DNA of 64,000 nucleotides. Origin: an uncultured Methanosarcinales archaeon (GTDB lineage: Archaea; Nanobdellota; Nanobdellia; Woesearchaeales; ARS49). The notes beneath the pieces were generated by a model that was not told the origin of the DNA, ran no database searches, and was given only the letters and a program-made list of their open reading frames with translations. The stretch is taken from contig CAZTVK010000019.1 of NCBI GenBank assembly GCA_964617195.1, positions 225,019 through 289,018 on the forward strand, read 5' to 3'. Below are positions 43,458 through 64,000 of this stretch, in pieces. The position numbers were made by a program, and so were the translations under genes. Every line of letters starts with the position of its first letter. Position 1 is the stretch's first letter.

Positions 43458-44543
43458 ATGAAAGTTCTAATATATTCTGGCAGCAACTGGAACGGACTGT
43501 GGTCGCACAGCCATGAACTTGCAAAATATTTTGCAAAACACACCAAAGTAATCTTCCTCAGCGTGCCATCCTGCCAAGACCCAGCACATCCAAACATAAG
43601 CAAGAAAACAGAATATCCAATACCGAAGAACACAACAGTCGTATTCTCAGACAAAGTATTCCAAAAATACACGCTACTGTATCTCATCTACACACAGTTC
43701 TACACTATAACAAAGTTTTTCTCCCTGCCAAAAGCAGAGCACTTCTTCCTCTACAACACATACGACATCCCATTCTTCATACTGGCAAAGATTTTCGGCA
43801 AGAAAGTACACTTTATGTACATAGACGATTACCCGGCACTCGCAAAGCACCCACTCCTCAAAGCAATCGCCACAATCGGAACTTGGCTATTCCTCAAATT
43901 CAGCAAAGACGTATTCTGCACGGCCAAAGTTCTCGAGCAAAAAGCAAGACTACACAATGACGAAGTCTACTACGTACCAAACTCGGTAAATCTGGAAGAT
44001 GCAAAGGATATTCGCCCCAAAACAAGAAAAGAATTCATCATAGGATTCGTAGGCACAATAGGGCACTGGGTGAGAACAGACCAAATACTCGACATAGCAC
44101 GCGCATTCAAAGACGCAAAAATATGGATAGTGGGATCAGGAGAAGGGCTTGCAACACTGCAAAAACACAAAAAACAAGAAAACCTAAAAAACCTAGAACT
44201 CTTCGGATTCGTATCCCATCAAAAAATGTACGAGCACATGTCCCAATTTAACATAGCCATAATCCCGTTCTACATAAACGAGATAACAAACGCAGTATCA
44301 CCAATCAAACTATTCGAATACTGGCTTGCAAAAAAGCCAGTCGTGTGCACGAAAACAACAGAACTCGCACAATTCAAAGGCGAAGTGTTATATGCAAACA
44401 AGAGCGAAGAATTTATTAAACAACTCAGGATGCTTAAAAACAATTCCAAACAAAGAAAGAAGCTGGCAGAAAAAGGATACAGTCTGGTAATGGAAAAGTA
44501 CAACTGGAACAAAATGATAGAGGTTTACCAAAAAGCACTATGA
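43458..44543 (+). CDS. Glycosyltransferase family 4-like
   Basis: GT-B C-terminal domain with EX7E-like block (EITNAVSPIKLFEY); ATG 43458 (ORF-track start 43437 is TTG). Confidence 0.7.
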   Translation: MKVLIYSGSNWNGLWSHSHELAKYFAKHTKVIFLSVPSCQDPAHPNISKKTEYPIPKNTTVVFSDKVFQKYTLLYLIYTQFYTITKFFSLPKAEHFFLYNTYDIPFFILAKIFGKKVHFMYIDDYPALAKHPLLKAIATIGTWLFLKFSKDVFCTAKVLEQKARLHNDEVYYVPNSVNLEDAKDIRPKTRKEFIIGFVGTIGHWVRTDQILDIARAFKDAKIWIVGSGEGLATLQKHKKQENLKNLELFGFVSHQKMYEHMSQFNIAIIPFYINEITNAVSPIKLFEYWLAKKPVVCTKTTELAQFKGEVLYANKSEEFIKQLRMLKNNSKQRKKLAEKGYSLVMEKYNWNKMIEVYQKAL

Positions 44544-45700
44544 AACTCTGCATTGTTGTCGGAACACGGCCAGAAATTATCAAAATGGCGCCCGTTATTC
44601 GCGAGTGCCAACGCAAAAAAATAGATTTCTTCATACTCCACAGCGGACAGCACTATGACTACAAAATGGACAAGCTGTTCTTCGAAGAACTCGAGCTACC
44701 ACAACCAAAATACAACCTAAGAGTAGGCTCACAACCATTCAGAAAACACGTTGGCATGATGATGAAAGGCATGATGAAAGTCTACCTAAAAGAGCAGCCA
44801 GATGCAGTAATCGTTCAAGGAGATACGATAACAATCCTAATGGGCGCCATGGCAGCAAAAAGATGGGACATACCGGTCGCACACCACGAAGCCGGACTCA
44901 GAAGCTACGACCTTTCCATGCCTGAAGAAATAAACAGAACACTAACCGACCACCTTTCCGAATTCCTCTTCGCACCAACCCAAGACGCCATCAAAAACAT
45001 CAAAGAAGAAGGGCTAAACGCAAAATACCACTCAAAAACAGGAAATACCATCGTTGATGCGGTCTTACAAAACATCAAACTGGCAGACAAAAAAGTAAAC
45101 ATACTCAAAACTTTTCACTTGCAATCCAAAAAATACTTTTTAGTAACCGCGCACAGGCAAGAAAACGTCGACAGACCACAGCGATTACAAGGAATTCTTA
45201 CAGGACTCGGAAAAATAAAACAAGCCTATCCTGCTTATAAAATAATTTATCCAATGCATCCCAGAACAAAGAAAAAAATTGCAGAGTTCAAACTTGTAAT
45301 TCCGAAAGGAATACAGGTCACAGAGCCAGTCGGCTTCCTCGAATTCCTCCAACTAGAAAAAAACGCAGCGCTCTGCATAACAGACTCAGGAGGCGTCCAA
45401 GAAGAATCGAGCATCCTTCATACCCCCTGCGTAACAATACGGGATAACACCGAACGGCCAGAAACCATCAAAGCAGGCATGAACGTGCTGGCAGGAACAG
45501 ACCCAGACAAAATACTTTCCTGTGCCAAAACCATGCTGAACAAAAAAATAAAGTGGAAAATGGTATTCGGTGACGGTCATGCAGCAGAAAGAATAGTTGA
45601 AGAACTCGTACTACAAATAAAGAAAAGAAAAAGCCTCACAGAAAGAATGAAGTGGATAATGCGGCTTCTCAAGAAAAATATAAAATCATTCCTTGGGTGA
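44540..45700 (+). CDS. wecB: UDP-N-acetylglucosamine 2-epimerase (non-hydrolysing)
   Basis: 386 aa; N-terminus VVGTRPEIIKMAPV…HSGQHYD, typical WecB/MnaA family. Confidence 0.9.
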   Translation: MKLCIVVGTRPEIIKMAPVIRECQRKKIDFFILHSGQHYDYKMDKLFFEELELPQPKYNLRVGSQPFRKHVGMMMKGMMKVYLKEQPDAVIVQGDTITILMGAMAAKRWDIPVAHHEAGLRSYDLSMPEEINRTLTDHLSEFLFAPTQDAIKNIKEEGLNAKYHSKTGNTIVDAVLQNIKLADKKVNILKTFHLQSKKYFLVTAHRQENVDRPQRLQGILTGLGKIKQAYPAYKIIYPMHPRTKKKIAEFKLVIPKGIQVTEPVGFLEFLQLEKNAALCITDSGGVQEESSILHTPCVTIRDNTERPETIKAGMNVLAGTDPDKILSCAKTMLNKKIKWKMVFGDGHAAERIVEELVLQIKKRKSLTERMKWIMRLLKKNIKSFLG

Positions 45701-45703
45701 ATT

Positions 45704-46711
45704 ATGAATCTAAAATATAACAAGGAACTAGCACTCAACTGGCTCAGGCGCTCACAACGCATGACAGGCAAAGGATTCAGCGCGTGGTACATACCAATAC
45801 TGGGCTGGGCGCAATCATACCCTGAAACCACAGGATACATCATACCAACAATGCTGCGTACAAGCAGCAAGGAAGACAAAAAAATAGCCCAACAAGCAGG
45901 AGACTGGCTTCTCACAATGCAAATGGAAAACGGAGCCATGCCTTGCATAGGAACAACAATCCCACTCGTATTCGACACAGGACAAGTAATATTCGGAATG
46001 ACGGCACTATACAAGGAAACACACAACAAAAAATATCTTGAATCAGCAAAAAAAGCCGGAGACTGGATAATAAAACAACAAGACTCAAAAGGATACTGGA
46101 TCAAGCACGCGTACCAAAACATGCCCCACACGTACTACTCGCGCGTCTCATGGGCGCTGCTCGAGCTTTGGAAAGTCACTAAGGATAAAGCATACAAACG
46201 ATCAGCAGAAAAACAACTCACATGGGTACTCAAACAACAACAGCCAAACGGATTCTTCCACTATAGCGGATTCTTCAGAAAAGATTTGGCAGTACTACAC
46301 ACAATAGCGTACACACTAGAAGGCCTAATAGAATCAGGAAAAATACTCAAAGACAAAAAACTACTTGATGCTGCCAGAAAAACCTGCAACGTACTTGTAA
46401 AACTTTCACCAGACGGAATACCCTACGGTCACTATGACGACCAGTGGCGGCCCAAGCTTACAGGCAGATGCATAACCGGAATTGCCCAAACAGCCCTGTG
46501 CCTGATTAGACTAGACACACGATACAAGCCAGCCGCAGAAAAAATGCTTAAGTACCTATGCGACGTACAAAACAAATCAAATAATCCGAACGTACGAGGA
46601 GCCCTTCCTGGTAGCGTGCCATTTTGGGGTTGGTATATGCCGTTCAGATACATCAATTGGGCAGCAAAATTCTTCATAGACGCCATAGATGCTTATCAAG
46701 CTAAGATTTAA
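45704..46711 (+). CDS. (alpha/alpha)6-toroid repeat protein (prenyltransferase/terpene-cyclase-like QW repeats)
   Basis: 335 aa; repeated GDW(L/I)…Q…NG…W motifs. Confidence 0.4.
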   Translation: MNLKYNKELALNWLRRSQRMTGKGFSAWYIPILGWAQSYPETTGYIIPTMLRTSSKEDKKIAQQAGDWLLTMQMENGAMPCIGTTIPLVFDTGQVIFGMTALYKETHNKKYLESAKKAGDWIIKQQDSKGYWIKHAYQNMPHTYYSRVSWALLELWKVTKDKAYKRSAEKQLTWVLKQQQPNGFFHYSGFFRKDLAVLHTIAYTLEGLIESGKILKDKKLLDAARKTCNVLVKLSPDGIPYGHYDDQWRPKLTGRCITGIAQTALCLIRLDTRYKPAAEKMLKYLCDVQNKSNNPNVRGALPGSVPFWGWYMPFRYINWAAKFFIDAIDAYQAKI

Positions 46712-46736: not shown

Positions 46737-47930
46737 ATGAAAGTCTGTGTTATTGGCCTAGGGTACATAGGACTGCCCACAGCCCTTCTACTTGCAAAAG
46801 GCGGTCACGAAGTAGAAGGCTACGATCTGATAAAAGAAAAAATCGCAATTCTAAACAAAGGAGAACTGCCCTTCCAAGAAAAAGGACTTCCAGAACTCTT
46901 CGCAGAAGCGAAAAAGAAATTCAAAGCAACAAGCACACTTGCAAAAAATTATGACGCTTTCATAATCTGCGTCCCAACGCCGCACACCAAACAAAACACC
47001 TGCGACCTTGAATATGTCGAGTCAGCAATACGCTCTATAATTCCGGCGCTCAAGAAAAATGCAATAGTAATACTTGAGTCAACAGTCGCACCAGGAACAA
47101 CCACAAACGTCGTAAAACCAATACTTGAGCAAACAGGTCTGAAGGCAGGAAAAGACTTCCAATTGGCGTGCGTCTGCGAAAAAGCAATACCAGGAAACAC
47201 TATAAATGAAATGATAAATAACGCTAGGATCATAGGCGGTTATGACGAAGCAAGCAAACAAAAAGCACAAGAAGTCTACAAAGCTTTTGTCAAAGGAGAA
47301 ATAATCCTGACGGACTGCACAACATCAGAAACAGTAAAACTCGTGGAAAACACATATAGAGACATCAACATCGCGTTTGCAAACGACCTGGCAAAAATAT
47401 GCGCCAAACTAGGCATAAACGTCTGGGACGTCATAAAATATGCAAATATGCACTCACGAGTTAACGTACACCAGCCAGGACCAGGAGTAGGAGGACACTG
47501 CATAGCAATAGACCCATGGTTTTTGGTAGAAAAACACCCAAGCGAGCTGGTCAAAGCAGCTCGAACAATCAATAACTCAATGCCAAAACACGTGTTCTCA
47601 TACATACAAAAAATGGCAAAAGGAAAACCAACAATAGGCATACTCGGAGTTGCGTACAAGAAAAACGTTGACGATTCACGAGAAACACCAGCACTAGAAC
47701 TAATACGGTTGATAAAAGAAAAAGGCTGGAATATAACTATAAACGACCCATTGGTTAAACGCTTTGAACACCCGCTGGATGATCTAGGCAAAGTGCTCAA
47801 AGCAGATATTGTAGTAATAGTCACAGACCACGACGAATACAAAAAAATAGACTTTTCAAAAGTCAAAACAGTGGTAGACACAAGAAACATGGGAATCAAA
47901 AACAGCCACCTGCTAGGAAGGGACTTCTAA
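46737..47930 (+). CDS. wecC: Nucleotide-sugar 6-dehydrogenase (UDP-ManNAc/UDP-GlcNAc dehydrogenase, WecC/WbpA-like)
   Basis: 397 aa; NAD fold VIGLGYIGLPTA, catalytic Cys region GGHCIAIDP. Confidence 0.85.
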   Translation: MKVCVIGLGYIGLPTALLLAKGGHEVEGYDLIKEKIAILNKGELPFQEKGLPELFAEAKKKFKATSTLAKNYDAFIICVPTPHTKQNTCDLEYVESAIRSIIPALKKNAIVILESTVAPGTTTNVVKPILEQTGLKAGKDFQLACVCEKAIPGNTINEMINNARIIGGYDEASKQKAQEVYKAFVKGEIILTDCTTSETVKLVENTYRDINIAFANDLAKICAKLGINVWDVIKYANMHSRVNVHQPGPGVGGHCIAIDPWFLVEKHPSELVKAARTINNSMPKHVFSYIQKMAKGKPTIGILGVAYKKNVDDSRETPALELIRLIKEKGWNITINDPLVKRFEHPLDDLGKVLKADIVVIVTDHDEYKKIDFSKVKTVVDTRNMGIKNSHLLGRDF

Positions 47931-48865
47931 TGAAAACAGTACTCGTAACAGGAGGCGCAGGAGCCATCGGCATAAACCTTGTTAACGGACTTCTTGATAA
48001 AGCAGAAAAAATCATAGTAGTTGACGACCTGTCCTCAGGGCATTCAGAGTTCCTAACAAGAAACAAAAAAATAGAGTTCATAAAAGACTCGATAACAGAT
48101 GGTGAGCTCTACGAAAAACTTTCAAAACAACCCATTCAAATTATCTTTCATCTAGCAGCGCACTTTGCCAACCAAAACTCAGTCGAACACCCACGACGGG
48201 ATTTGAAGGTAAACGGCTTGGGAACATTAAAACTGCTAGAATTTGCCGTCAAAAATAAAATTGAAAAATTCGTCTACATTTCATCATCCTGCGTGTACGG
48301 CAACAACCACGACGCAGCGGAAGAAGACCTCAGCAAAATACAACTCGACACGCCCTACGCCATAACAAAATACCTCGGGGAACACTACACTTCATTTTTC
48401 CACGAATATCACAAGCTCAACACAGTCATACTGCGCGTGTTCAATTCATTCGGGCCAGGAGAACTCGGAGGAAAATACAGAAACGTCATACCTAATTTCA
48501 TTGACAATGCTATAAAAGGAAAACCACTCACCATTACCGGCACGGGCAACGAAACACGCGATTTCAACTGGGTAGGAAACGTCGTACAGGCCTGCATATT
48601 GGCAGCAACAAAAGAAAAGGCCAACGGGCAAATGTTCAACATCGGCTCAGGCGTTGAGACAAAAATTATTGACATAGCAAAAACGATACAACGACTGTCA
48701 AAAAATAAGACGCGAATCATATTCAAGCCACGCCGAGACTGGGACAAAGTCCTAAGAAGAAAAGCCAACATAAAACAAGCACAAAAGCTACTAGACTACA
48801 AACCAGAAATAAATCTTCAAAAACACTTCAAAATAACATATGACTGGTACGTTAAACACAAATGA
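47930..48865 (+). CDS. NAD-dependent nucleotide-sugar epimerase/dehydratase (extended SDR)
   Basis: 311 aa; TGGAGAIG Rossmann motif, YxxxK (YAITK). Confidence 0.8.
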   Translation: MKTVLVTGGAGAIGINLVNGLLDKAEKIIVVDDLSSGHSEFLTRNKKIEFIKDSITDGELYEKLSKQPIQIIFHLAAHFANQNSVEHPRRDLKVNGLGTLKLLEFAVKNKIEKFVYISSSCVYGNNHDAAEEDLSKIQLDTPYAITKYLGEHYTSFFHEYHKLNTVILRVFNSFGPGELGGKYRNVIPNFIDNAIKGKPLTITGTGNETRDFNWVGNVVQACILAATKEKANGQMFNIGSGVETKIIDIAKTIQRLSKNKTRIIFKPRRDWDKVLRRKANIKQAQKLLDYKPEINLQKHFKITYDWYVKHK

Positions 48866-49893
48866 AAAAAATAAAGTTCGCCATAATCGGATGCGGAAAA
48901 ATAGGAACAAGACATGCAGAAAAAATGCAATTAGTTCCGGAAGCAGAACTTTACGCTGTCTGCGACGTAATAGAAGCACGAGCCAAAGCCGTAGCAGACA
49001 AATACAAATGCAAATACTACACAGATTACCACGAACTACTGAAAGACAAAAAAATAGAAGTCGTTAACGTCTGCGTGCCAAACGGATTACACGCACAAGT
49101 GTCAATAGATGCAATGGACGCAAAGAAAAACGTTCTCTGCGAAAAACCTATGTGCATTACATTAAAAGATGCAGACAAAATGGTCGAAGCACAAAAAAAG
49201 AACAACGTCAAATTCTTTCTAGTAAAACAAAACAGATACAACCCGCCAATTGTAGCGCTAAAAGAGGCTGTTACAAATAATAAGCTCGGCAAAATCTACA
49301 TGGTAAACAGCACAGTATTCTGGAACAGAAACCAAGCCTACTATGACGAAGAAGCCTGGAGAGGCACAAAAAACATGGATGGAGGAACATTATACACGCA
49401 ATGCAGCCACTTCCTAGACCTCATGCTCTGGCTCGGCGGAGACGTCAAAAGCATACACGCTAAAATGGAACTCTACAACCACGACATAGAAACAGAAGAC
49501 ACAGGAGTAGTGCTGCTAAAATTCAAAAACGGAGCACTTGGAGTATTACAATACACCACCTGCGCCTATGAAAAAAACATGGAAGGCTCCCTCACAGTCA
49601 TGGGCACAAAAGGCAGTGCCAAAGCAGGCGGGCAATACCTCAACGAAATGGAATACTGGAACGTTGAAAACACGCCAATGCCAAAAATAGAAGAAAGCGC
49701 AGAGCCAAACACATACGGAACGTACCAAGGCTCAATGTCAAACCACGACAAAGTCATCGCGCACGTTGCAGATGTACTCTTACACGGCGGAAACCCAGGA
49801 GTACCAGTAGAACAAGGAAGATACTCAGTCAAAATAATGGAAGCAGCATACAAATCAGCACAAACAGGAAAGGAGATAGTGTTCAATGACTGA
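48862..49893 (+). CDS. Gfo/Idh/MocA-family oxidoreductase (WbpB-like UDP-GlcNAcA 3-dehydrogenase candidate)
   Basis: 343 aa; IIGCGKIGTRH Rossmann, EKP motif. Confidence 0.85.
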   Translation: MKKIKFAIIGCGKIGTRHAEKMQLVPEAELYAVCDVIEARAKAVADKYKCKYYTDYHELLKDKKIEVVNVCVPNGLHAQVSIDAMDAKKNVLCEKPMCITLKDADKMVEAQKKNNVKFFLVKQNRYNPPIVALKEAVTNNKLGKIYMVNSTVFWNRNQAYYDEEAWRGTKNMDGGTLYTQCSHFLDLMLWLGGDVKSIHAKMELYNHDIETEDTGVVLLKFKNGALGVLQYTTCAYEKNMEGSLTVMGTKGSAKAGGQYLNEMEYWNVENTPMPKIEESAEPNTYGTYQGSMSNHDKVIAHVADVLLHGGNPGVPVEQGRYSVKIMEAAYKSAQTGKEIVFND

Positions 49894-50470
49894 CGTCAAG
49901 CTAGGAAAAGGCACAGAAGTACAAGACTTCGTCATAATAGGAGTTTTACCAAAAGAAACAGGCAACAACACTAAAACCATAATCGGCAAAAACTCAGTCA
50001 TACGCTCACACACAGTCATCTACGCAGGAAACAAAATAGGAGACAACTTCCAAACAGGACACGGCGTTAACATACGCGAATACAACACCATTGGAAATAA
50101 TGTCTCAATCGGAACACATTCTATTATCGAACACCACGTAAAAATAGAAGACAACGTACGAATACACAGCGACGCGTTCATTCCAGAATATTCCATTCTA
50201 AAAAAAGGCTGCTGGATAGGCCCAGGCGCAATATTCACCAACGTACGCGTACCATTGGACCCAGAATCAAAGAAAAAAATCAAAGGGCCAACAATAGAAG
50301 AAGGCGCAATAATAGGCGCAGGAGCAATAATCCTTCCCGGAATTACCATAGGAAAAAACGCCCTTGTCGGAGCAGGCTCAGTCGTCACAAAAGACGTTCC
50401 TGCAGGCGCCGTTGTAGTCGGAAACCCGGCTAGAGTAGTCAAGAAAAAAACAGAGATAACAAAAAAATGA
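49886..50470 (+). CDS. Hexapeptide-repeat N-acetyltransferase (WbpD-like)
   Basis: 194 aa; left-handed beta-helix repeats [LIV]G.N..I. Confidence 0.8.
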   Translation: MTDVKLGKGTEVQDFVIIGVLPKETGNNTKTIIGKNSVIRSHTVIYAGNKIGDNFQTGHGVNIREYNTIGNNVSIGTHSIIEHHVKIEDNVRIHSDAFIPEYSILKKGCWIGPGAIFTNVRVPLDPESKKKIKGPTIEEGAIIGAGAIILPGITIGKNALVGAGSVVTKDVPAGAVVVGNPARVVKKKTEITKK

Positions 50471-55354: not shown

Positions 55355-55355
55355 C

Positions 55356-58227: not shown

Positions 58228-59057
58228 CCGAGCACCTTCTGAAGACCTTCTCGAAGCGACGTTTTTGGAGTAAATACGAGAAGTTTGCGCATTGACGTGA
58301 TATCAGCAACCATATCAAGGTTGGGTTTTACGTTTTTAGAAAAAACAGGTTTCTTTCCCAATAACTCGCCCGCACTATTAGCTATTTCCTTAATTTGCAC
58401 CGCGCTTCCTGCTATCAATATACGCAATGGAGGATTTCGAAGCAAGCAGAGCCGCTTCAATGCTTCTGCAACATCTTCGATATATGTCACGGAGAGTCGC
58501 GGACCTCCGTCTTCGTTTGTTGCAATTGGCTGCTGTTCCTGCACTTTTTTGATCAAACGAGGAACCAGACGCTGCGGCGATTGTCCAGGGCCATACGGGA
58601 AGAACAAATAAGCAATTGACACTTTGAAATGTCTCTGATACTTGAGAACTTCTTTCTCAGCAGCATCTTTGCTTTCAGCATACTTGTCAACGGGGCTTCG
58701 AACAGTATTTTCCGTGATTGGAAAATTTGAACGCTGAAACACGCCTCCAGTAGAAATGTAAATGAATTTTTTAACGTGAGCCTTTTTTGATGCCTTCAGC
58801 AACATTTTCGTGCCTCCGACGTTGATCCGATACCCTTTTCCTGGTTGGCTTTTAAACATCTCAGGCAAGGCAGTCGCAACATGCACAACAACATCGATGT
58901 TTTTCAAGTCAACTTTTTTTTGTTTCGCCAAATCTATCCGAATCAATCCTTGTTTTTTCTGACTGCTCGTGCCGCGCACTTGAAAAAATGCTGATAATTT
59001 TCGTGCAAGAGCAGTGCCTACAAACCCTGAGACGCCTGTGATTAATACTGTTTTCAT
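58224..59057 (-). CDS. NAD(P)-dependent sugar epimerase/reductase (SDR, RmlD-like size)
   Basis: 277 aa; ITGVSGFVG Rossmann, YAESK. Confidence 0.7.
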   Translation of the reverse strand: MKTVLITGVSGFVGTALARKLSAFFQVRGTSSQKKQGLIRIDLAKQKKVDLKNIDVVVHVATALPEMFKSQPGKGYRINVGGTKMLLKASKKAHVKKFIYISTGGVFQRSNFPITENTVRSPVDKYAESKDAAEKEVLKYQRHFKVSIAYLFFPYGPGQSPQRLVPRLIKKVQEQQPIATNEDGGPRLSVTYIEDVAEALKRLCLLRNPPLRILIAGSAVQIKEIANSAGELLGKKPVFSKNVKPNLDMVADITSMRKLLVFTPKTSLREGLQKVLG

Positions 59058-59069
59058 AGATACACCATC

Positions 59070-60059
59070 TTAAATGTTCTTGACAATCATTTTTTTCATA
59101 TTTCGAATAATTGCATTCTTCCATCCGCTTATCTCCTTCGTAAACGTGTACACTTCACAAAAACTTCCGCCCCATTTCTGCTTAAACCTGTAAATTCCCT
59201 CTTCTTTCGAGCCGGGAGCTGGCTTTGGGTTACAGCCGCCTAAATCATAAACTTTGTATCCTTTTGCATGGCCCCAACAAATGATTTCCCACTTCAGCAA
59301 GTCATTCGCATACAAAGTCTTGTACTGTTCATCACGACCGGCGCCGATCTCTCTGATAAAACCGCCCTTATGCATAACTCCCATACCTGCAATAATTTTC
59401 CCTTGGTATTCGGCAAGAAAAACATTGTAGTCAGGACCAAAATGCTTGCAACAGTTTAAAATGTCCTGATACGGCCCGGTTGCAAAGCCCAACTTTTTCC
59501 TGCTAGACTTCAACAAATTGTAATAGCCTTCAAAATCAGTTTCTGAAACAGCAACACGAACCGTCACGTCTTCGCGCTTTGCCTTATTCACCAGCTTCCG
59601 CGCCTCTTTCTTCACATTTTTCAACAATGTTGCCTCATCCTTTGACAAATCAACCAGAAAAGTCCCCCATATCTGTTTTTCAAAACCGTTAGCTTCCAAT
59701 ATATCAATCAACAAGGCATCCTGCGGTCTGCGCAAGTCATTCACAAAAAAAGAAACACAGCCAAGCTTTCGTGCAAAATCAATCCCCTCTTTTACAAAAT
59801 CCTCAGCATCACCAGTTGGGCTGCCATACGCATGCAGAGAGCTGAAAAACCAGCCAATCGGCTTCAGCCAATGAAACTGAGGAGCGCGCGCAACCAAATT
59901 CTGCCTTATCAAAATCCAGTACCCGGTACTGCGCGCAATAAAAACAGGGGAACTCTCTGAATTCAAGCCAGCCCAGCTCTCTGACGCATACAAACTACCA
60001 CCATGGACTTTCCCATCCGGGTATTTCTCAATACGAACATTCATAGAAACCTGATTCAC
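59070..60059 (-). CDS. FemAB-family/GNAT-fold aminoacyl- or acyl-transferase-like protein
   Basis: 329 aa; tandem GNAT-like halves typical of FemAB/BioF2-like (Acetyltransf_6) proteins. Confidence 0.45.
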   Translation of the reverse strand: MNQVSMNVRIEKYPDGKVHGGSLYASESWAGLNSESSPVFIARSTGYWILIRQNLVARAPQFHWLKPIGWFFSSLHAYGSPTGDAEDFVKEGIDFARKLGCVSFFVNDLRRPQDALLIDILEANGFEKQIWGTFLVDLSKDEATLLKNVKKEARKLVNKAKREDVTVRVAVSETDFEGYYNLLKSSRKKLGFATGPYQDILNCCKHFGPDYNVFLAEYQGKIIAGMGVMHKGGFIREIGAGRDEQYKTLYANDLLKWEIICWGHAKGYKVYDLGGCNPKPAPGSKEEGIYRFKQKWGGSFCEVYTFTKEISGWKNAIIRNMKKMIVKNI

Positions 60060-60063
60060 GTAA

Positions 60064-60729
60064 ATGTTTATAAATTCAGTGGCTACAATTAATACGATGT
60101 ACTGGAAAATACGAGCACTCTGGAAAAAATACCCTAACTACTTCTGGGGAGACCAATTAGATGTACGATACTATTTATGTGAACAGATTTCGAAGCTTAA
60201 AAGAAAACGCATACTTGACATTGGCTGCAACATAGGAATCATTTCAGGATGTGCAGACAAAACAAACGCTATAATCGGAATTGATACTGACAGAAAATCA
60301 ATCGCAATCGCAAAGAGCCTAAATCCGCACAGCACTTATCTCTCAAAAGATTTCTGGAAATTTAAAACAAACCCTGTTGACGCAGTTTTGTTTGTGAATA
60401 TGATAGAAATATTCCAGCGAGAACAAAGAAAAAAACTCATACAACACATTGCAAGTTATCTTAGAAAAAATGGAACGCTATACCTCACAACGCCTAACAG
60501 AAACAACCCATACTACCAAAAGCATCCAAACAAATTAACACCTGAAGAATTACTTGGCCACCTAACTCCCCATTTCAAAGTTGAGCATGTCGTATTCTGG
60601 AATCCAATTAGCGTACATGCAGGCCATCTTGCTTTCTTTCCAGGCGCGTATACCCTGATGAAATGGATTTCACTCTTATTTCAAAGCAAAAAAAGCGTCA
60701 GCATTTACATCAAAGCACGAAAGCGCTAA
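60064..60729 (+). CDS. Class I SAM-dependent methyltransferase (second)
   Basis: 221 aa; motif I ILDIGCNIGIISG. Confidence 0.65.
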   Translation: MFINSVATINTMYWKIRALWKKYPNYFWGDQLDVRYYLCEQISKLKRKRILDIGCNIGIISGCADKTNAIIGIDTDRKSIAIAKSLNPHSTYLSKDFWKFKTNPVDAVLFVNMIEIFQREQRKKLIQHIASYLRKNGTLYLTTPNRNNPYYQKHPNKLTPEELLGHLTPHFKVEHVVFWNPISVHAGHLAFFPGAYTLMKWISLLFQSKKSVSIYIKARKR

Positions 60730-62207
60730 CGCTTCAAAGCCACGCGGGCAAGCTCTTTCAATTCCTTAACGTCCAACACGCGCAGCAAGAATATCAAAAT
60801 AATGTAAATTATTCCTGCAATGGCAAGCACAAGGCCCGCTTCAACGAAAACATTCAACTGCAGAATCTTTTTCAGCCAAAACATCGACCCGATCATGGCC
60901 AAACAACACAACACGTTCTTCATCCAAGACCAAACAGGAGAAACAACAGCCAAATGACGATGCAAATGCCAAGCGCTCATTATTAACAATAACAGCAATG
61001 ACAAACTTGTCGCCGCTGCAGCACCCGCAATGCCATATGACGGAATAAACAAGAAGTTCAAAACTACATTCACAATTGCCACAATGCCAACAAAGCGCGT
61101 GACAAGGCCGGGCTTTCCACTAGCATTGAAATAACTCAAATTCACCTGCGCAATAATGTTCATCAAAGCACCAATACTCAAAATCCGCAAAGGCATAGCA
61201 GCAGAAACATAATCCGCGCCGAATATTGTCTGAATAATAAGCTCGGGGAAAGTCACCATAACTGCCACAGCAGGCAGAGCAATTACGATCCCATACTTAT
61301 ACAATAATCTAAACGCCTCCTTGATACGATCCTTCAATTTCCGAGCAAGCAATTCTGAAAATAACGGCAGAGTAATCGTTGTAATAGCAGCGCTCAAATA
61401 AAGCAATAAATTGGAAATAGGAACTGCGGCATTGTAGATGCCTACATCAGCAACAGACTTCATGCGAGTCAACATCAAGGAGTCAGTATATTGCAGGATG
61501 AACGGACCAATGCCTGCCAAGAACACCTTCGCGCCAAATGAAAAAACTCTTCGCAAAAACTCGAAATTCCATTTAATCGGAACTCCCCACTGAGTCAAAC
61601 GAGCAAAAGAAGGCGCCCAAAGAACAACAATGCTTGCATAACTAAGAAGCAAGGCTAATGCCGGTGCTCTCACATTTGGAACTACCTGTAATAGGCCAAA
61701 AGTGTACACTAGCAGCAATAAAGGTTGCACGACACCCATAACTGCATACTGCCTAGGCTTCTGAAATCCAATATAGACTGAAGTAAGTAAAGCGTGCAGT
61801 GTACCAACCAAGAATACAAACGAAAACAGAATAAAAATACCACTTAAACCAGACTGTTTGAAAAAGTAAGTCTCAATAGAAGAACTCCAAAGCATAACAA
61901 ACAGAAGAATCAGCAAAGAAACAACCAAACTATACAAAGCGGATACAAGCACAGTCAACTTAATCTTTCCGTACTCCTTTTTAATCATCCATTCAGGAAT
62001 AAACTTAATCAACGCGCTTGTAGTTCCGATGTCACGGATAATAAACGCCAGAGAAAAGAAAGAAAGCATAGCATAATACAGACCATACTCTGCGACGCTC
62101 AAATTCTTAGTCAATAAAACCCTGAAAAGAAACCCGCACAAAGTCCCAATCACATACATGCCCAACACAGAACCAATTCCCCATACAGCACGGCGAAGGA
62201 ACGTCAT
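60726..62207 (-). CDS. wzx: Wzx-type polysaccharide/oligosaccharide flippase (MOP superfamily)
   Basis: ~494 aa from ATG 62207 (4-nt overlap with GT4 stop); 12-14 TM helices, polysacc_synt family pattern. Confidence 0.8.
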   Translation of the reverse strand: MTFLRRAVWGIGSVLGMYVIGTLCGFLFRVLLTKNLSVAEYGLYYAMLSFFSLAFIIRDIGTTSALIKFIPEWMIKKEYGKIKLTVLVSALYSLVVSLLILLFVMLWSSSIETYFFKQSGLSGIFILFSFVFLVGTLHALLTSVYIGFQKPRQYAVMGVVQPLLLLVYTFGLLQVVPNVRAPALALLLSYASIVVLWAPSFARLTQWGVPIKWNFEFLRRVFSFGAKVFLAGIGPFILQYTDSLMLTRMKSVADVGIYNAAVPISNLLLYLSAAITTITLPLFSELLARKLKDRIKEAFRLLYKYGIVIALPAVAVMVTFPELIIQTIFGADYVSAAMPLRILSIGALMNIIAQVNLSYFNASGKPGLVTRFVGIVAIVNVVLNFLFIPSYGIAGAAAATSLSLLLLLIMSAWHLHRHLAVVSPVWSWMKNVLCCLAMIGSMFWLKKILQLNVFVEAGLVLAIAGIIYIILIFLLRVLDVKELKELARVALKR

Positions 62208-63271
62208 TTTATATCCCTCAGCACACTCTGCATCTTGCCAACAATCACATCCCAATCGAACTTCTTGCGAACGGTTTTCTGTGATTTGGTGCCAAACTTT
62301 TCACGCAACTTAGCATTCTTAACCAGCACAGAAATTTTATTGCGCAATGCTTTTGTGTCGCCAGCTTTGACTAAAAATCCACTTTTTCCGTTGTCAATAA
62401 TCTCGCGCGTGCCGCCAACATCAGTCGCAACAACAGCCAAACCCATCGCGCCAGCTTCAAGAACGGCAGTAGGCAAGCCCTCGCCATAAGACGGATTCAC
62501 AAGAATATCCGAATTAGCAAGAACATCACGCACATCTTTAGCATCTTTCTCGCCCACAAATTTTCCACCGAGCTTTTTCAGCTCACTCTCGTACGGACCT
62601 TTGCCAACAATAACTACTTCCGCTTTCAAGCCTTTAGCAGCTTTCAGCAAATCTTGCACGCCCTTCTCCTTAATTAACCGACCAACAAATGCTATCCGGA
62701 TACCAGTATGCTTTTTTCTTTTACCATCAAAAAACTTTGTGTCAACGCCGTTGTAAAGAACATCGCACTTGCGAGCTCCTAATTTCTTCCCAAAATTACA
62801 CGACGCCTTAGAAACACCAGCAACGCGAGCATGCTTCAAAATCCACCTGCCAAAAACAGCATCAACAGTCCTGACTCCTGCCTGAATAATGAGATTATCA
62901 TACGGCTGCTGAGTACCATGCTCGACATGCAGCCAAGGAATATCATGACGGTGCGCATACAAGCCAGCAGCAAAAGACAACGGGTAAAAACGCGTGTGCG
63001 TAACAACCGCATCAACCTTTCCAATCTTTTTAAAAACATCAGACACAGGAGAAAGCTGAAGCGTAAGCCTATCAGACAACAATTCAACAGAAGGAATACG
63101 CAAAACAGAAACTCCATCAATCTTCTCATTATTCTTCAAGCCAGGCAAACTAGAAGTCACAACCCACACTTTGTGACCGCGCTTCACCAATCTTTTTGCT
63201 GTATTATGAACATAATTCTCCACGCCGCCCTTATGCGGAAGAAAATACGAAGAAAAAATAAGGATTCTCAT
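62204..63271 (-). CDS. Glycosyltransferase family 4
   Basis: 355 aa; N-terminal HKGGVE, C-terminal GEGLPTAVLEAGAMGLAVVAT EX7E motif. Confidence 0.85.
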   Translation of the reverse strand: MRILIFSSYFLPHKGGVENYVHNTAKRLVKRGHKVWVVTSSLPGLKNNEKIDGVSVLRIPSVELLSDRLTLQLSPVSDVFKKIGKVDAVVTHTRFYPLSFAAGLYAHRHDIPWLHVEHGTQQPYDNLIIQAGVRTVDAVFGRWILKHARVAGVSKASCNFGKKLGARKCDVLYNGVDTKFFDGKRKKHTGIRIAFVGRLIKEKGVQDLLKAAKGLKAEVVIVGKGPYESELKKLGGKFVGEKDAKDVRDVLANSDILVNPSYGEGLPTAVLEAGAMGLAVVATDVGGTREIIDNGKSGFLVKAGDTKALRNKISVLVKNAKLREKFGTKSQKTVRKKFDWDVIVGKMQSVLRDIK

Positions 63272-63594
63272 TTCTTTAGGGCGATTTCCCTTACTAATTT
63301 GGTAATCTCGTGCTCCAACTTGTCGATTTTCATATTTTGCTGGAAGACCAAGTAAAACAACATCATGATGGCGATGTATACTATAAGATCAATACCCCTG
63401 CCAACGCCAATCGGGCGAGACAACGCGTCAATAATAGGCGTAACAGAGACAATCAGCAAAACCGCGAACCAGACGAAAAACCAGAAAATCGCAGTCTTCA
63501 AAGGCAACTTCTTCGTCTTCCACAAAGCCATAATGCGAGCTATGTGAATCGCTGCAAAAACAAACGCTGCAATCTGAATCGGTTGTAAGCTCAT
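63268..63594 (-). CDS. Small 3-TM membrane protein (DUF2304-like, glycosyltransferase-associated)
   Basis: 108 aa; overlaps GT genes on both sides. Confidence 0.45.
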   Translation of the reverse strand: MSLQPIQIAAFVFAAIHIARIMALWKTKKLPLKTAIFWFFVWFAVLLIVSVTPIIDALSRPIGVGRGIDLIVYIAIMMLFYLVFQQNMKIDKLEHEITKLVREIALKK

Positions 63595-64000
63595 TTTGTC
63601 AACTTATGCAAAAGCATCCTGTAAAAAATCTTAATCGCGTTAAAGCTGCTCTGCCCATGCTGTTTACTATACTCAGTGTATTTAATAATTACGGGAACCT
63701 CAACAAAACGCAAGTGATTCTTCTTAATTTCAGACAAAATCTCGCTCGCATGCTCCATCTGATCCATGGAAATATCTATCTGCTCGGCGGCATGACTGGA
63801 AAATGCGCGAAAACCATTATGCACATCAGTCAGCCTAATACCGTAAAACATCCACACGACAATAATACCAGTCTTCAGCACAAGCTTGCGGAAAAACGGA
63901 ATCTCAGTACCCTTTGACAAGAAACGACTGCCCAAAGAAACATCAACCTCGCCTCTCTTCACAGGCTCAATAACTCTAGGAATGTCCTCAACACGATGCT
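63591..64000 (-). CDS. GT2-family glycosyltransferase (dolichyl-phosphate sugar synthase-like), 5'-partial in window
   Basis: C-terminal part with GT2 blocks (TDVHNGFRAF); reading frame stays open to window end. Confidence 0.7.
   Translation of the reverse strand, partial: HRVEDIPRVIEPVKRGEVDVSLGSRFLSKGTEIPFFRKLVLKTGIIVVWMFYGIRLTDVHNGFRAFSSHAAEQIDISMDQMEHASEILSEIKKNHLRFVEVPVIIKYTEYSKQHGQSSFNAIKIFYRMLLHKLTK

What the first reader, a model, noticed from the sequence alone, without database searches (positions are those of the whole stretch)
44540..64000. ~20-kb glycan cluster encoding a 2,3-diacetamido-2,3-dideoxy-uronic acid pathway plus FemAB-like and two methyltransferases
Established family assignments give WecB/WbpI (2-epimerase), WecC/WbpA (6-dehydrogenase), WbpB-like Gfo/Idh/MocA oxidoreductase, WbpE-like DegT aminotransferase and WbpD-like hexapeptide acetyltransferase in one block. 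A second oxidoreductase/aminotransferase/acetyltransferase/SDR set, four GT4 and one GT2 glycosyltransferases and a Wzx flippase follow. This is the enzymology that makes GlcNAc3NAcA/ManNAc3NAcA, sugars known from methanogen N-glycans. The FemAB/GNAT-fold gene and two SAM methyltransferases suggest amino-acid and methyl decorations of the glycan. Together with the GT-C island at 895-7867 this may constitute the organism's surface glycosylation system.
Basis: partly seen in the sequence, partly recalled or inferred. Interest (0 to 1): 0.55.

Follow-up and report, generated by a model that had tools for sequence, protein, structure and literature searches.

The report
Variable archaeal surface-glycan gene cluster
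This is a real block of about 21 kb of sugar-building genes in the chromosome of an uncultured Woesearchaeota (DPANN) archaeon; most of its chemistry is already known from bacteria and methanogens, but its middle section differs between close relatives and carries an unusual enzyme that probably adds an amino acid from a charged tRNA.

Summary
The host is a Woesearchaeota archaeon, not a methanogen.

The core of the diacetamido-sugar pathway (3-dehydrogenase, aminotransferase, N-acetyltransferase) is present twice, as two unrelated sets. The supposed first and last enzymes fail their tests. The 2-epimerase has the residues of ordinary WecB, not WbpI. The 6-dehydrogenase matches UDP-ManNAc dehydrogenases (WecC), not WbpA. 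Both also occur in sister loci that lack the amino-sugar sets. So UDP-ManNAcA synthesis is well supported, but a uronic-acid form of the diamino sugar is unproven.

New points:
- The locus has conserved flanks around a replaceable ~12-kb middle, and at least four variants exist in relatives.
- Positions 52.7-60.7 kb lack the genome's extreme strand skew, which suggests recent arrival.
- The FemAB-like protein is a full-length FemX homologue that keeps the catalytic Phe-Lys pair. It recurs next to methyltransferases and 3-amino-sugar genes, and is fused to a methyltransferase in a sister locus.
- The truncated GT2 plus DUF2304 resembles a polyprenyl-phosphate-sugar synthase pair.

Verdict: a new member of a known kind, of moderate interest.

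The parts
43437..44543 (+). GT4 glycosyltransferase (a).
   Evidence: Pfam Glycos_transf_1, 52 bits. 86% identical to the syntenic gene in sister locus L085.
44540..45700 (+). WecB-type non-hydrolysing UDP-GlcNAc 2-epimerase
   Evidence: TIGR00236 393 bits, cut-off 210. Lys15-Met16 and Gln-Gly-Asp95 give the UDP-GlcNAc-type signature. Conserved in L085, L088 and L001.
45704..46711 (+). Cytoplasmic (alpha/alpha)6-toroid protein of unknown activity; part of the conserved frame
   Evidence: Weak Pfam hits only. More than 1300 homologues, mostly from DPANN archaea and Patescibacteria. AF2 model pLDDT 96.7. Best folds are GH88 hydrolases and AGE-type 2-epimerases, TM 0.75-0.80, at most 17% identity.
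46737..47930 (+). WecC-type UDP-ManNAc 6-dehydrogenase
   Evidence: TIGR03026 429 bits (cut-off 190); NF040825 366 bits; TviB model only 140 bits. PDB hits Cap5O 336 bits and 4r16 300 bits.
47930..48865 (+). WbmF/Mth375-type SDR, a probable epimerase of N-acetylated uronic-acid sugars
   Evidence: PDB 6pmh 291 bits, 2pzj 163 bits. Motifs HFANQ, SSC, YAITK, GKYRNV and ETRDF match the WbmF group as tabulated in PMC12820599.
48862..49893 (+). Module A: WlbA-like nucleotide-sugar 3-dehydrogenase (Gfo/Idh/MocA)
   Evidence: PDB 3q2i 234 bits, 3q2k 211 bits. Pfam GFO_IDH_MocA N- and C-terminal domains. Absent from L085 and L088.
49886..50470 (+). Module A: left-handed beta-helix 3-amino-sugar N-acetyltransferase (QdtC-like)
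   Evidence: PDB QdtC 3fs8 158 bits, 3mqg 78 bits. Pfam Hexapep.
50467..51555 (+). Module A: DegT-family sugar 3-aminotransferase
   Evidence: Pfam DegT 422 bits. PDB 7b0d 399, QdtB 325, DesV-type 2oga 319, WbpE 283 bits.
51552..52688 (+). GT4 glycosyltransferase (b)
   Evidence: Pfam Glycos_transf_1, 90 bits. Only 41-43% identical to the GT4 in L085 and L088.
52691..53299 (+). Module B: WlbB-like 3-amino-sugar N-acetyltransferase. The start is either ATG 52691 or ATG 52712.
   Evidence: PDB 3mqg 144 bits, 4mzu 142 bits. 93% identical to the L001 homologue. Start codons checked.
53296..54393 (+). Module B: DegT-family sugar aminotransferase (3- or 4-position not resolved)
   Evidence: Pfam DegT 434 bits. 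PDB 7b0d 275, perosamine synthetase 264, QdtB 243, WbpE 227 bits. 92% identical to the L001 homologue.
54380..55354 (+). SDR 2: epimerase, dehydratase or decarboxylase-like, role unresolved (motif SSSEAYG / YAASK)
   Evidence: Pfam Epimerase 196 bits. PDB 6dnt 182 bits. dTDP-glucose 4,6-dehydratase model 228 bits, below its 365 cut-off.
55356..56363 (-). Module B: Gfo/Idh/MocA oxidoreductase closest to the archaeal UDP-GlcNAc 3-dehydrogenase
   Evidence: NF040723 234 bits, below its 450 cut-off. No close solved relative. 25% identical to gene 48862.
56360..57109 (-). SAM-dependent methyltransferase 1
   Evidence: Pfam Methyltransf_11 78 bits, Methyltransf_25 73 bits.
57148..58227 (-). GT4 glycosyltransferase (c)
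   Evidence: Pfam Glycos_transf_1 44 bits, Glyco_transf_4 32 bits.
58224..59057 (-). SDR 3 (277 aa), reductase- or epimerase-like, role unresolved
   Evidence: Pfam Epimerase 111 bits, RmlD_sub_bind 56 bits.
59070..60059 (-). FemX-like double-GNAT transferase, probably aminoacyl-tRNA dependent. An ATG start at 60044 is possible.
   Evidence: Pfam FemAB and Acetyltransf_6. The family profile hits S. aureus FemX 6snr at E=8e-38 and W. viridescens FemX at 74 bits over the full length. The invariant F292-K293 aligns with FemX F304-K305.
60064..60729 (+). SAM-dependent methyltransferase 2, divergent from the FemX-like gene with only 4-19 nt between the starts
   Evidence: Pfam Methyltransf_23 45 bits. 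62% identical homologue in L001.
60726..62255 (-). Wzx/MOP-family flippase (likely start ATG 62207)
   Evidence: Pfam Polysacc_synt 91 bits, Polysacc_synt_3 68 bits. 55-56% identical in L085 and L088. Start checked.
62204..63271 (-). GT4 glycosyltransferase (d); conserved right-hand frame
   Evidence: Pfam Glycos_transf_1 120 bits, Glyco_transf_4 76 bits. 79-80% identical in L001 and L085.
63268..63594 (-). DUF2304 small membrane protein, partner of the GT2
   Evidence: Pfam DUF2304 88 bits.
63591..64000 (-). C-terminal part of a GT2 polyprenyl-phosphate-sugar synthase; the gene runs off the window
   Evidence: NCBIfam PpgS 106.6 bits (model positions 89-223 of 226), AglJ 38.8 bits. No Pfam hit.
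48862..60729 (.). Variable middle of the locus: no nucleotide similarity to sister locus L085, whose flanks are collinear
   Evidence: blastn of window against L085: collinear over 36226-48862 (71-87%), a break, then resumes at 60763-63324.
52691..60729 (.). Sub-segment that lacks the genome's extreme third-codon-position strand skew, so probably recently acquired or inverted
   Evidence: Plus-strand AT3 skew is -0.06 to 0.48 here (mean 0.19), against a mean of 0.67 for 37 other genes; Mann-Whitney p=3.6e-6.

Best explanation
This is a chromosomal surface-glycan locus of a Woesearchaeota (DPANN) archaeon. It has a conserved frame around a replaceable middle.

Frame (shown by homology and synteny):
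- WecB converts UDP-GlcNAc to UDP-ManNAc, and a WecC-type dehydrogenase oxidises it to UDP-ManNAcA.
- A WbmF-type SDR probably epimerises this uronic acid. The conserved (alpha/alpha)6 protein may also act on it.
- GT4 enzymes build an oligosaccharide on a polyprenyl or dolichyl phosphate carrier, and a Wzx-type flippase moves it across the membrane.
- A GT2/DUF2304 pair makes a polyprenyl-phosphate monosaccharide. It could either prime the chain (as AglJ does) or feed an outward-facing GT-C transferase.

Middle (inferred):
- Two unrelated modules each combine a 3-dehydrogenase, an aminotransferase and an N-acetyltransferase. They oxidise C3 of a UDP-HexNAc or UDP-HexNAcA, aminate it and acetylate it, giving 2,3-diacetamido-2,3-dideoxy sugars.
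- Module A is 48862-51555. Module B is 52691-54393 plus 55356-56363.
- Whether the product is a uronic acid depends on whether the WecC-type enzyme, or another enzyme encoded elsewhere, supplies the C6 oxidation.
- The FemX-like enzyme most likely transfers an amino acid from aminoacyl-tRNA onto a sugar amino group, and the adjacent methyltransferases then methylate the product.

The middle is exchanged by recombination among closely related populations, so relatives display different glycans.
For: - Family and closest-structure assignments.
- Archaeal chromosomal context: RFC large subunit 354 bits against a cut-off of 280, Mre11, HerA and a FlaI-like ATPase. All named RFC relatives are Woesearchaeota or Nanoarchaeia, at up to 82% identity.
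- Operon-like packing, with overlaps of 4-14 nt.
- Conserved frame and variable middle. L085 is collinear with 36226-48862 and 60763-63324 but unrelated in between. L088 and L001 are two further variants of the same locus. L001 and L087 come from the same metagenome, 3300010391.
- WecB- and WecC-type signatures.
- WbmF motifs in gene 47930.
- FemX homology with the Phe-Lys pair retained. Lys305 is the catalytic residue of FemX, and a Fem-like enzyme (Orf11) is known to aminoacylate an amino sugar from Gly-tRNA (PMC12945691).
- The FemX-like gene recurs with methyltransferases and a 3-amino trio:
  - in L001;
  - in the independent locus L089, as a Gfo::LbH fusion, DegT, GT4, FemAB and three methyltransferases;
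  - as a FemAB::methyltransferase fusion in L085;
  - as a methyltransferase-FemAB-methyltransferase fusion in P0378.
- The GT2 fragment matches PpgS and AglJ and is paired with DUF2304.
- GlcNAc3NAcA, ManNAc3NAmA6Thr and glyceroyl-acylated diaminoglucuronic acid are documented in archaeal N-glycans (PMC11407970).
Against: - Nothing here is biochemical.
- No UDP-GlcNAc 6-dehydrogenase of the WbpA/TviB type and no WbpI-type epimerase is present, so the substrate of the WlbA-like enzyme (normally UDP-GlcNAcA) is unaccounted for.
- Most equivalog-level NCBIfam scores fall below their curated cut-offs: NF040723 scores 234 against 450, and the UDP-ManNAc dehydrogenase models score 366 against 750 and 346 against 459.
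- The roles of the aminotransferase at 53296, two SDRs, both methyltransferases and the toroid protein are unresolved.
- The window contains no priming phosphoglycosyltransferase, no polymerase and no AglB, so the final acceptor is unknown.
- Some FemAB/Acetyltransf_6 relatives may use acyl donors other than aminoacyl-tRNA.
- The presence of two acetyltransferases alongside the FemX-like enzyme is not explained.
Confidence: 0.6

Rival explanations
1. The cluster encodes the complete five-step Wbp/Wlb pathway: gene 46737 acts as WbpA (UDP-GlcNAc 6-dehydrogenase), 48862, 50467 and 49886 act as WbpB, WbpE and WbpD, and 44540 acts as WbpI. The product is UDP-ManNAc3NAcA.
For: All five enzyme families sit in one co-directional block. 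The WlbA-type relatives of 48862 use UDP-GlcNAcA (enzyme identity from my own knowledge and the references). The adjacent WbmF-type SDR is reported to act on UDP-ManNAc3NAcA in Bordetella (PMC12820599). Nucleotide-sugar dehydrogenases and 2-epimerases can shift substrate with few changes.
Against: Gene 44540 carries Met16 and Gln93, the UDP-GlcNAc type, instead of Ala and Tyr. Gene 46737 scores 2.4 times higher on UDP-ManNAc dehydrogenase models than on the TviB-type model, and its best solved relatives are UDP-ManNAc dehydrogenases. Both genes persist in sister loci L085 and L088, which lack the trio.
Confidence: 0.2
2. The product is not a protein N-glycan. It is a free or lipid-anchored acidic polymer or capsule, similar to teichuronic acid or enterobacterial common antigen, built around ManNAcA.
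For: There are weak but consistent hits to teichuronic-acid proteins: TuaH 59 bits, TuaC 110 bits, TuaB 43 bits, TuaD 158 bits. The WecB/WecC pair is the hallmark of ECA and of ManNAcA-type teichuronic acid. No AglB is present in the window.
Against: No Wzy-like polymerase, chain-length regulator or ligase lies in the cluster; every ORF of 80 aa or more is accounted for. All Tua scores are far below their cut-offs. Archaeal N-glycans do contain ManNAcA and diamino-uronic acids. AglB is usually encoded elsewhere in the genome.
Confidence: 0.25
3. The FemAB-like protein is an ordinary acyl-CoA-dependent GNAT N-acyltransferase. It would add, for example, an acetyl, glyceroyl or hydroxybutyryl group to the amino sugar, and tRNA would not be involved.
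For: It matches the GNAT-family model Acetyltransf_6. Sister loci L085 and L088 have a DegT aminotransferase and a FemAB-like gene but no hexapeptide acetyltransferase, as if the FemAB-like enzyme were the only N-acylase there. Non-acetyl N-acyl groups occur on archaeal diamino-uronic acids.
Against: The profile aligns over the full length with tRNA-dependent FemX enzymes (E=8e-38). It keeps the Phe-Lys pair that contacts the aminoacyl-tRNA 3' end in FemX. It also hits a solved 'aminoacyl-tRNA-dependent peptide synthase', 9wqw.
Confidence: 0.25
4. The block, or its middle, is a recent foreign insertion of bacterial origin that is not functional.
For: Positions 52.7-60.7 kb lack the genome's third-position strand skew. 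Many of the best characterised relatives are bacterial enzymes.
Against: GC (0.42-0.46), GC3 and codon usage are native. All ORFs are intact and tightly coupled. The low-skew genes have homologues that are 87% identical at nucleotide level, and 92-93% at protein level, on a contig of a close relative (L001), where they sit between the same WecB and GT4 flanks. The exchange is therefore within the lineage.
Confidence: 0.03

Closest known systems
Wbp/Wlb pathway for UDP-ManNAc3NAcA (P. aeruginosa WbpA/B/E/D/I; Bordetella WlbA-D)
   Same: It has a 3-dehydrogenase of the B. pertussis/C. violaceum WlbA subgroup, a DegT 3-aminotransferase and left-handed beta-helix 3-N-acetyltransferases, encoded side by side. 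The pathway chemistry is as summarised in PMC10622841.
   Different: The 2-epimerase and the 6-dehydrogenase are of the WecB and WecC type, not WbpI and WbpA. The trio is present twice, as non-paralogous sets that are 25%, 44% and 34% identical. The host is an archaeon.
Methanococcus N-glycan sugar genes (archaeal UDP-GlcNAc 3-dehydrogenase family NF040723; WecB/WecC-type UDP-ManNAcA synthesis)
   Same: Gene 55356 is closest to the archaeal UDP-GlcNAc 3-dehydrogenase model, and gene 46737 to the archaeal UDP-ManNAc dehydrogenase model. The predicted sugars match those found in Methanococcus glycans.
   Different: The scores are below the equivalog cut-offs. The organism is a DPANN archaeon. 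No threonine-amidating or acetamidino-forming genes were recognised. A FemX-like gene is present instead.
Haloferax volcanii agl cluster (AglJ GT2 priming on dolichol phosphate, AglR Wzx-like flippase, AglM dehydrogenase, AglP methyltransferase, AglS GT-C). The gene roles given here are from my own knowledge.
   Same: It has the same parts list: an AglJ/PpgS-like GT2, a MOP flippase, a nucleotide-sugar dehydrogenase, SAM methyltransferases, several soluble glycosyltransferases, and a PMT_2-type GT-C elsewhere in the window.
   Different: The sugars differ (HexNAc uronic acids and diamino sugars). No equivalog-level match was found for any Agl protein: AglJ scores 39 bits against a cut-off of 325, and AglM 178 against 670.
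M. tuberculosis PpgS (Rv3631) / Rv3632 / GT-C Rv3779 system. The gene roles are from my own knowledge.
   Same: A GT2 polyprenyl-phospho-sugar synthase is encoded next to a DUF2304 small membrane protein.
   Different: Only the C-terminal 135 residues are in the window. The score of 106.6 bits is below the 370 cut-off. The sugar and the acceptor are unknown.
Fem-family aminoacyl-tRNA transferases (FemX of W. viridescens and S. aureus; Orf11 of the BD-12 streptothricin pathway)
   Same: It has the double-GNAT architecture without a coiled-coil insert and keeps the catalytic Phe-Lys pair. [quoted passage not shown]
   Different: It sits in an archaeal glycan cluster, not in a peptidoglycan or antibiotic pathway. 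It is coupled to, and in relatives fused with, methyltransferases. Identity to the solved Fem proteins is low.
Bacterial O-antigen and capsule loci, and archaeal glycosylation islands, with conserved flanks and swappable centres
   Same: The flanking genes are 67-87% identical at nucleotide level, the centre is unrelated, gene identities are mosaic, and variants coexist in one sample.
   Different: It is documented here for a Woesearchaeota lineage. Recency is revealed by loss of an extreme strand skew rather than by a change in GC content.

Membership tests
Wbp/Wlb UDP-ManNAc3NAcA pathway | UDP-GlcNAc 6-dehydrogenase (WbpA/TviB type) supplying UDP-GlcNAcA | tested here: not met
   Gene 46737 is the only nucleotide-sugar dehydrogenase. 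It scores 366 and 346 bits on UDP-ManNAc dehydrogenase models and 140 bits on the TviB model. Its best solved relatives are Cap5O at 336 bits and 4r16 at 300 bits. This is a sequence-level test; substrate promiscuity is not excluded.
Wbp/Wlb UDP-ManNAc3NAcA pathway | UDP-GlcNAcA 3-dehydrogenase (WbpB/WlbA) | tested here: met
   Gene 48862: 3q2i 234 bits and 3q2k 211 bits over residues 2-339; the next hit scores 131 bits. The EKP motif is present. The mapping of these PDB codes to WlbA is from my own knowledge. Substrate was not tested.
Wbp/Wlb UDP-ManNAc3NAcA pathway | PLP-dependent 3-aminotransferase (WbpE) | tested here: met
   Gene 50467: WbpE 283 bits over the full length. Higher scores go to other sugar 3-aminotransferases (QdtB 325, 2oga 319) and to 7b0d (399). 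Membership is met at the level of the 3-aminotransferase group; the exact substrate is unknown.
Wbp/Wlb UDP-ManNAc3NAcA pathway | Left-handed beta-helix 3-N-acetyltransferase (WbpD/WlbB) | tested here: met
   Gene 52691: 3mqg is the best hit at 144 bits. Gene 49886: QdtC 158 bits, 3mqg 78 bits.
Wbp/Wlb UDP-ManNAc3NAcA pathway | 2-epimerase specific for UDP-GlcNAc3NAcA (WbpI type: Ala after the substrate-binding Lys, and Tyr two residues before the catalytic Asp) | tested here: not met
   Gene 44540 reads RPEIIK15-M16 and VQ93-G-D95, that is Met and Gln. This is the pattern PMC10622841 gives for UDP-GlcNAc enzymes.
WecB/WecC UDP-ManNAcA route | Non-hydrolysing UDP-GlcNAc 2-epimerase above the curated cut-off, plus an adjacent UDP-ManNAc dehydrogenase | tested here: met
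   TIGR00236 scores 393 bits against 210. The dehydrogenase passes the subfamily model TIGR03026 (429 against 190), and its best relatives are UDP-ManNAc dehydrogenases. The equivalog cut-offs (750 and 459) are not reached.
WbmF-type SDR (Group 3 nucleotide-sugar SDR) | Substrate-binding motifs HFANQ, S-x-C, YxxxK, GKYRNV and ETRD(W/F) | tested here: met
   Gene 47930 has HFANQ, SSC, YAITK, GKYRNV and ETRDF, compared with Table 4 of PMC12820599. PDB 6pmh scores 291 bits. Activity of this group is inferred, not measured, even for Mth375.
Fem (FemABX) aminoacyl-tRNA transferases | Double-GNAT fold aligned over the full length with FemX | tested here: met
   Profile A1 against PDB: 6snr E=8e-38; 1ne9, 4ii9 and 3gkr at 74 bits, covering profile positions 14-321 against chain residues 10-305.
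Fem (FemABX) aminoacyl-tRNA transferases | Catalytic Lys (FemX Lys305) preceded by an aromatic residue | tested here: met
   F292-K293 is invariant in the 10-sequence alignment and aligns with the F-K at residues 304-305 of FemX. The role of Lys305 is taken from PMC12945691.
Fem (FemABX) aminoacyl-tRNA transferases | Use of aminoacyl-tRNA as donor, with an amine acceptor | not testable with these tools
   This needs an enzyme assay. Context supports a sugar amine as acceptor: DegT genes are adjacent in L001, L085, L088 and L089.
Archaeal N-glycosylation (agl) pathway | AglB/STT3 oligosaccharyltransferase with the WWDxG motif | tested here: not met
   A six-frame motif scan found only one WWDSG, at residue 28 of the PMT_2-type protein 6461-7867. 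That protein is not STT3-like. AglB may lie outside the window.
Archaeal N-glycosylation (agl) pathway | Lipid-carrier priming enzyme and a flippase | tested here: inconclusive
   A Wzx/MOP flippase is present. The GT2 fragment hits PpgS at 107 bits and AglJ at 39 bits, both below cut-off and on a truncated gene. No AglH/WecA-type enzyme was found.

The most novel reading that the evidence does not exclude
In this lineage and its relatives, a FemX-like enzyme takes an amino acid from aminoacyl-tRNA and attaches it to the 3-amino group of a 2,3-diamino sugar destined for the cell surface. A coupled or fused methyltransferase then methylates it. This would be the first tRNA-dependent modification of a surface glycan in Archaea. 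The module would travel as part of a recombining cassette that diversifies the surface of host-dependent DPANN cells.
Probability: 0.3. Interest if true: 0.65.

Novelty: new member of a known kind. Interest (0 to 1): 0.38.

Why it matters
DPANN archaea live attached to other cells, and their surface glycans are likely to mediate that contact and also virus attack. No DPANN glycan structure or pathway has been determined, to my knowledge. This locus gives a concrete, testable parts list.

It also shows that close relatives swap the middle of the locus, in the way serotype loci behave in bacteria. That points to diversifying selection on the surface.

The recurring FemX-like/methyltransferase module next to amino-sugar genes suggests an uncharacterised route for adding amino acids to glycans. 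The route could be tested with recombinant proteins.

The core sugar enzymology itself is textbook and would not surprise a specialist.

Tried and rejected
- **Exact look-ups.** Exact-sequence look-ups of window proteins to find the source contig failed. Cluster look-ups returned no names or accessions.
- **Genome scan.** The single GTDB genome scan, run with the FemX-like alignment, did not recover the source genome. It returned only relatives of about 25-36% identity, mostly Chloroflexota, which are probably peptidoglycan-type Fem proteins.
- **Rarity of the FemX-like protein.** I first thought it was rare, with 10 word-indexed hits. The exhaustive profile search found 25,918 cluster representatives, so I dropped the rarity claim.
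- **Distant Fem relatives.** P0009 and P0010 sit in bacterial contexts, next to a Mur ligase or a sigma factor. I did not use them as support.
- **Pilin or archaellin targets.** I tested whether the four roughly 200-residue ORFs at 26042-28517 are pilins or archaellins that could be glycan targets. They are multi-pass membrane proteins with 0-1 sequons. Rejected.
- **AglB.** None was found in the window.
- **Module B as a 4-amino-4,6-dideoxy-hexose (bacillosamine or viosamine type) pathway.** This is not supported.
  - SDR 54380 has SSE rather than the TDE dehydratase motif and falls below the dehydratase cut-off.
  - The acetyltransferase is WlbB-like, i.e. 3-amino specific.
  - The regiochemistry of the aminotransferase is still unresolved.
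- **Toroid protein as a uronic-acid C5-epimerase.** Only faint precomputed hits to C5-epim_C exist in homologues. The fold search gives generic (alpha/alpha)6 matches. Left open.
- **PDB code checks.** Literature checks of PDB codes 3Q2I, 3Q2K and 3MQG failed because the papers are not held. Those identities rest on my own knowledge and the reference list seen.
- **Promoters and terminators.** I did not scan for them, because the tool covers only sigma-70 promoters and this is an archaeon.

Full report
**What is in the sequence.** From 43437 to the end of the window, every ORF of useful size belongs to one compact block.
- Twelve genes run on the plus strand from 43437 to 55354. They overlap by 4-14 nt or lie 2-25 nt apart.
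- The next gene is convergent. Its stop codon lies 1 nt from the stop of the last plus-strand gene.
- From there to the window end, nine genes run on the minus strand, interrupted by one plus-strand methyltransferase at 60064-60729.

- The 'GT2' is only a 135-residue C-terminal fragment cut by the window end. It has no Pfam hit but scores 106.6 bits on the polyprenyl-phospho-GalNAc synthase PpgS model and 38.8 bits on AglJ.

**Host and setting.** The window is archaeal and chromosomal.
- It encodes an RFC large subunit (354 bits, above the cut-off), Mre11, HerA, a FlaI-like ATPase, several aminoacyl-tRNA synthetases and GatA/GatB.
- Every named relative of the RFC protein is from 'Candidatus Woesearchaeota' or Nanoarchaeia, at up to 82% identity.
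- GC content is 0.41-0.46 throughout. GC3 and codon usage of the cluster match the rest of the window.

**Testing the proposed diacetamido-uronic-acid pathway.** The established pathway has five steps: WbpA (6-dehydrogenase), WbpB (3-dehydrogenase), WbpE (3-aminotransferase), WbpD (N-acetyltransferase) and WbpI (2-epimerase) (PMC10622841).

The three middle steps are well supported:
- Gene 48862 has as best solved relatives 3q2i and 3q2k, at 234 and 211 bits over its whole length. I know these as WlbA from C. violaceum and B. pertussis. That paper is cited, but I could not open it.
- Gene 50467 matches sugar 3-aminotransferases: QdtB 325 bits, WbpE 283 bits.
- Gene 49886 matches QdtC (158 bits), and gene 52691 matches 3mqg/WlbB (144 bits).

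A second, non-paralogous set exists. It consists of 55356 (closest to the archaeal UDP-GlcNAc 3-dehydrogenase model, 234 bits, below the cut-off), 53296 and 52691. The two sets are only 25%, 44% and 34% identical.

The first and last steps fail:
- The only 6-dehydrogenase (46737) is of the UDP-ManNAc type. It scores 336 bits on Cap5O, 300 bits on the P. horikoshii enzyme and 366 bits on NF040825, against 140 bits on the TviB model.
- The 2-epimerase has Met16 after the substrate-binding lysine and Gln93 two residues before the catalytic aspartate. PMC10622841 gives exactly this pattern for UDP-GlcNAc enzymes. The UDP-GlcNAc3NAcA enzyme has Ala and Tyr at these positions.

The cluster therefore securely encodes UDP-ManNAcA synthesis and the capacity to make 3-amino, 3-N-acetyl sugars. 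Whether the latter are uronic acids remains unproven.

**The adjacent SDR.** Gene 47930 carries the WbmF/Mth375 substrate motifs (HFANQ, SSC, YAITK, GKYRNV, ETRDF) and scores 291 bits on 6pmh. This group is thought to epimerise N-acetylated mannuronic acids towards the L-series.

**Comparison with relatives: a conserved frame and a swappable middle.** Homologues of the toroid and FemAB-like proteins led to contigs from close relatives.
- L085 (GCA_964497645.1) is collinear with the window from the Mre11/HerA genes through the RecJ-like gene, GT4a, WecB, the toroid gene, the dehydrogenase and the WbmF-like SDR (36226-48862, 71-87% nucleotide identity). It is collinear again from Wzx to DUF2304 (60763-63324). 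Nothing between 48862 and 60763 is similar.
- In place of that stretch, L085 has methyltransferases, one different DegT and a FemAB::methyltransferase fusion.
- L088 is a third arrangement.
- L001 is a fourth, and it is a mosaic. Its WecB end is 95% identical to the window at nucleotide level. Genes 52691 and 53296 are 92-93% identical at protein level. The FemAB-like protein is only 67% identical and Wzx only 35%.
- L001 and the L085-type contig L087 come from the same metagenome, so variants coexist.

This is the architecture of a serotype-type locus.

**A compositional clock.** The genome has an extraordinary strand asymmetry at silent sites that does not depend on gene orientation.
- Plus-strand AT3 skew averages 0.67 and GC3 skew averages -0.45 over 37 genes.
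- The nine genes from 52691 to 60729 average 0.19 and -0.26 (Mann-Whitney p=3.6e-6 and 1.1e-3).
- Module A and GT4b (48862-52688) are absent from L085 but show the native skew.
- So 52.7-60.7 kb looks like the most recent arrival or inversion.
- It arrived from within the lineage, given the 87% nucleotide match in L001.
- The variable part of L085 is also atypical, with GC 0.34-0.35 and a reversed AT skew.

**The FemAB-like gene.** It is not a rare family: the exhaustive search found 25,918 cluster representatives. It is, however, a genuine FemX homologue.
- The profile aligns over the full length with S. aureus FemX (E=8e-38) and W. viridescens FemX (74 bits).
- Its invariant F292-K293 falls on FemX F304-K305.
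- Lys305 is the residue assigned a catalytic role in FemX. A Fem-like enzyme, Orf11, is already known to glycylate an amino sugar from Gly-tRNA (PMC12945691).

Context supports a sugar amine as the acceptor and a functional tie to methylation. The gene sits:
- beside a hexapeptide acetyltransferase, DegT and Gfo trio and a methyltransferase in L001;
- in the order Gfo::LbH fusion, DegT, GT4, FemAB and three methyltransferases in the independent locus L089, whose FemAB-like protein is 40% identical;
- fused to methyltransferases in L085 and in P0378.

More distant relatives sit in bacterial peptidoglycan-type contexts. The chemistry would be acylation of a sugar amine, not amidation of a uronic-acid carboxyl as in the Methanococcus threonine modification.

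**The other frame genes.**
- The toroid protein models confidently (pLDDT 96.7) as an (alpha/alpha)6 barrel. It resembles GH88 hydrolases and AGE-type 2-epimerases at no more than 17% identity.
- It has more than 1300 homologues, many from DPANN archaea and Patescibacteria, and some are fused to methyltransferases.
- Its fixed place between WecB and WecC suggests it acts on the same sugar, but its activity is unknown.
- The GT2 fragment with DUF2304 resembles the PpgS/Rv3632 pair, which makes a polyprenyl-phosphate sugar (gene roles from my own knowledge).
ORF 6461-7867 matches PMT_2 (48.5 bits), but the neighbouring ORFs have no profile hits.
- No AglB is in the window, so the final acceptor of the glycan cannot be named.

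**Verdict.** This is a real, native, probably functional surface-glycan locus. It is a new member of a known kind. The more interesting aspects are the cassette structure in a DPANN lineage, the FemX-like/methyltransferase module and, outside the finding proper, the extreme strand skew of this genome.

Noticed in passing
window 1-64000 (all genes except 52691-60729): There is an extreme strand asymmetry at third codon positions that does not depend on gene orientation. Plus-strand AT3 skew is +0.5 to +0.9 (A:T up to about 10:1 or more), and GC3 skew is -0.3 to -0.65, for genes on both strands. The sign never changes across the 64 kb. Sister locus L085 shows the same sign. To my knowledge this is far stronger than usual for archaea. 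A literature search found nothing on it.
   Followed up: partly
window 45704-46711; homologues P0017-P0135: This is a large uncharacterised family of cytoplasmic (alpha/alpha)6-toroid proteins, with more than 1300 hits. They are common in Woesearchaeota/Nanoarchaeota, Bathyarchaeota and Patescibacteria, and are variously mis-annotated as terpene cyclase, GH88 or GH127. Some are fused to a methyltransferase (for example in Thermococcus sp. 9N3). Here the gene sits in a fixed position between WecB and WecC.
   Followed up: partly
L001 and L087 (both JGI metagenome 3300010391); L085, L086, L088: At least four different gene contents occupy the same chromosomal slot between WecB and the GT4/DUF2304/GT2 genes in close relatives. 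Two of the variants occur in the same metagenome.
   Followed up: partly
window 55354-55356, 60044-60064 and 60726-60729: Gene packing is unusually tight at changes of strand. The convergent stops of 54380-55354 and 55356-56363 are 1 nt apart. The convergent ends of 60064-60729 and the Wzx gene overlap by 4 nt. The divergent starts of the FemX-like and methyltransferase genes are only 4-19 nt apart, which leaves no room for separate promoters.
   Followed up: no
ORFs 895-2370 and 2367-3725 are multi-pass membrane proteins with no Pfam or NCBIfam hit. ORF 4341-6464 has a single N-terminal hydrophobic stretch and no hit.
   Followed up: partly
window 29833-31602, 31947-34716: The window has a bacterial-type AspRS carrying a GAD insertion domain, followed by GatA and GatB, in an archaeal genome. 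This implies the indirect Asn-tRNA/Gln-tRNA route with a bacterial-like synthetase.
   Followed up: no
window 20349-28517: A FlaI-like ATPase (750 aa) and a 721-aa protein with no profile hit lie close to four small multi-pass membrane proteins of 185-229 aa that have no family hits. Two of these, 26602-27291 and 27288-27905, are clear paralogues. This may be an uncharacterised surface-filament or secretion module.
   Followed up: no
L089 4179-5723: In an unrelated metagenomic glycan locus, the 3-dehydrogenase and the hexapeptide N-acetyltransferase are fused into a single 514-residue protein (Gfo/Idh/MocA::LbH). It lies next to DegT and a FemAB-like gene.
   Followed up: no
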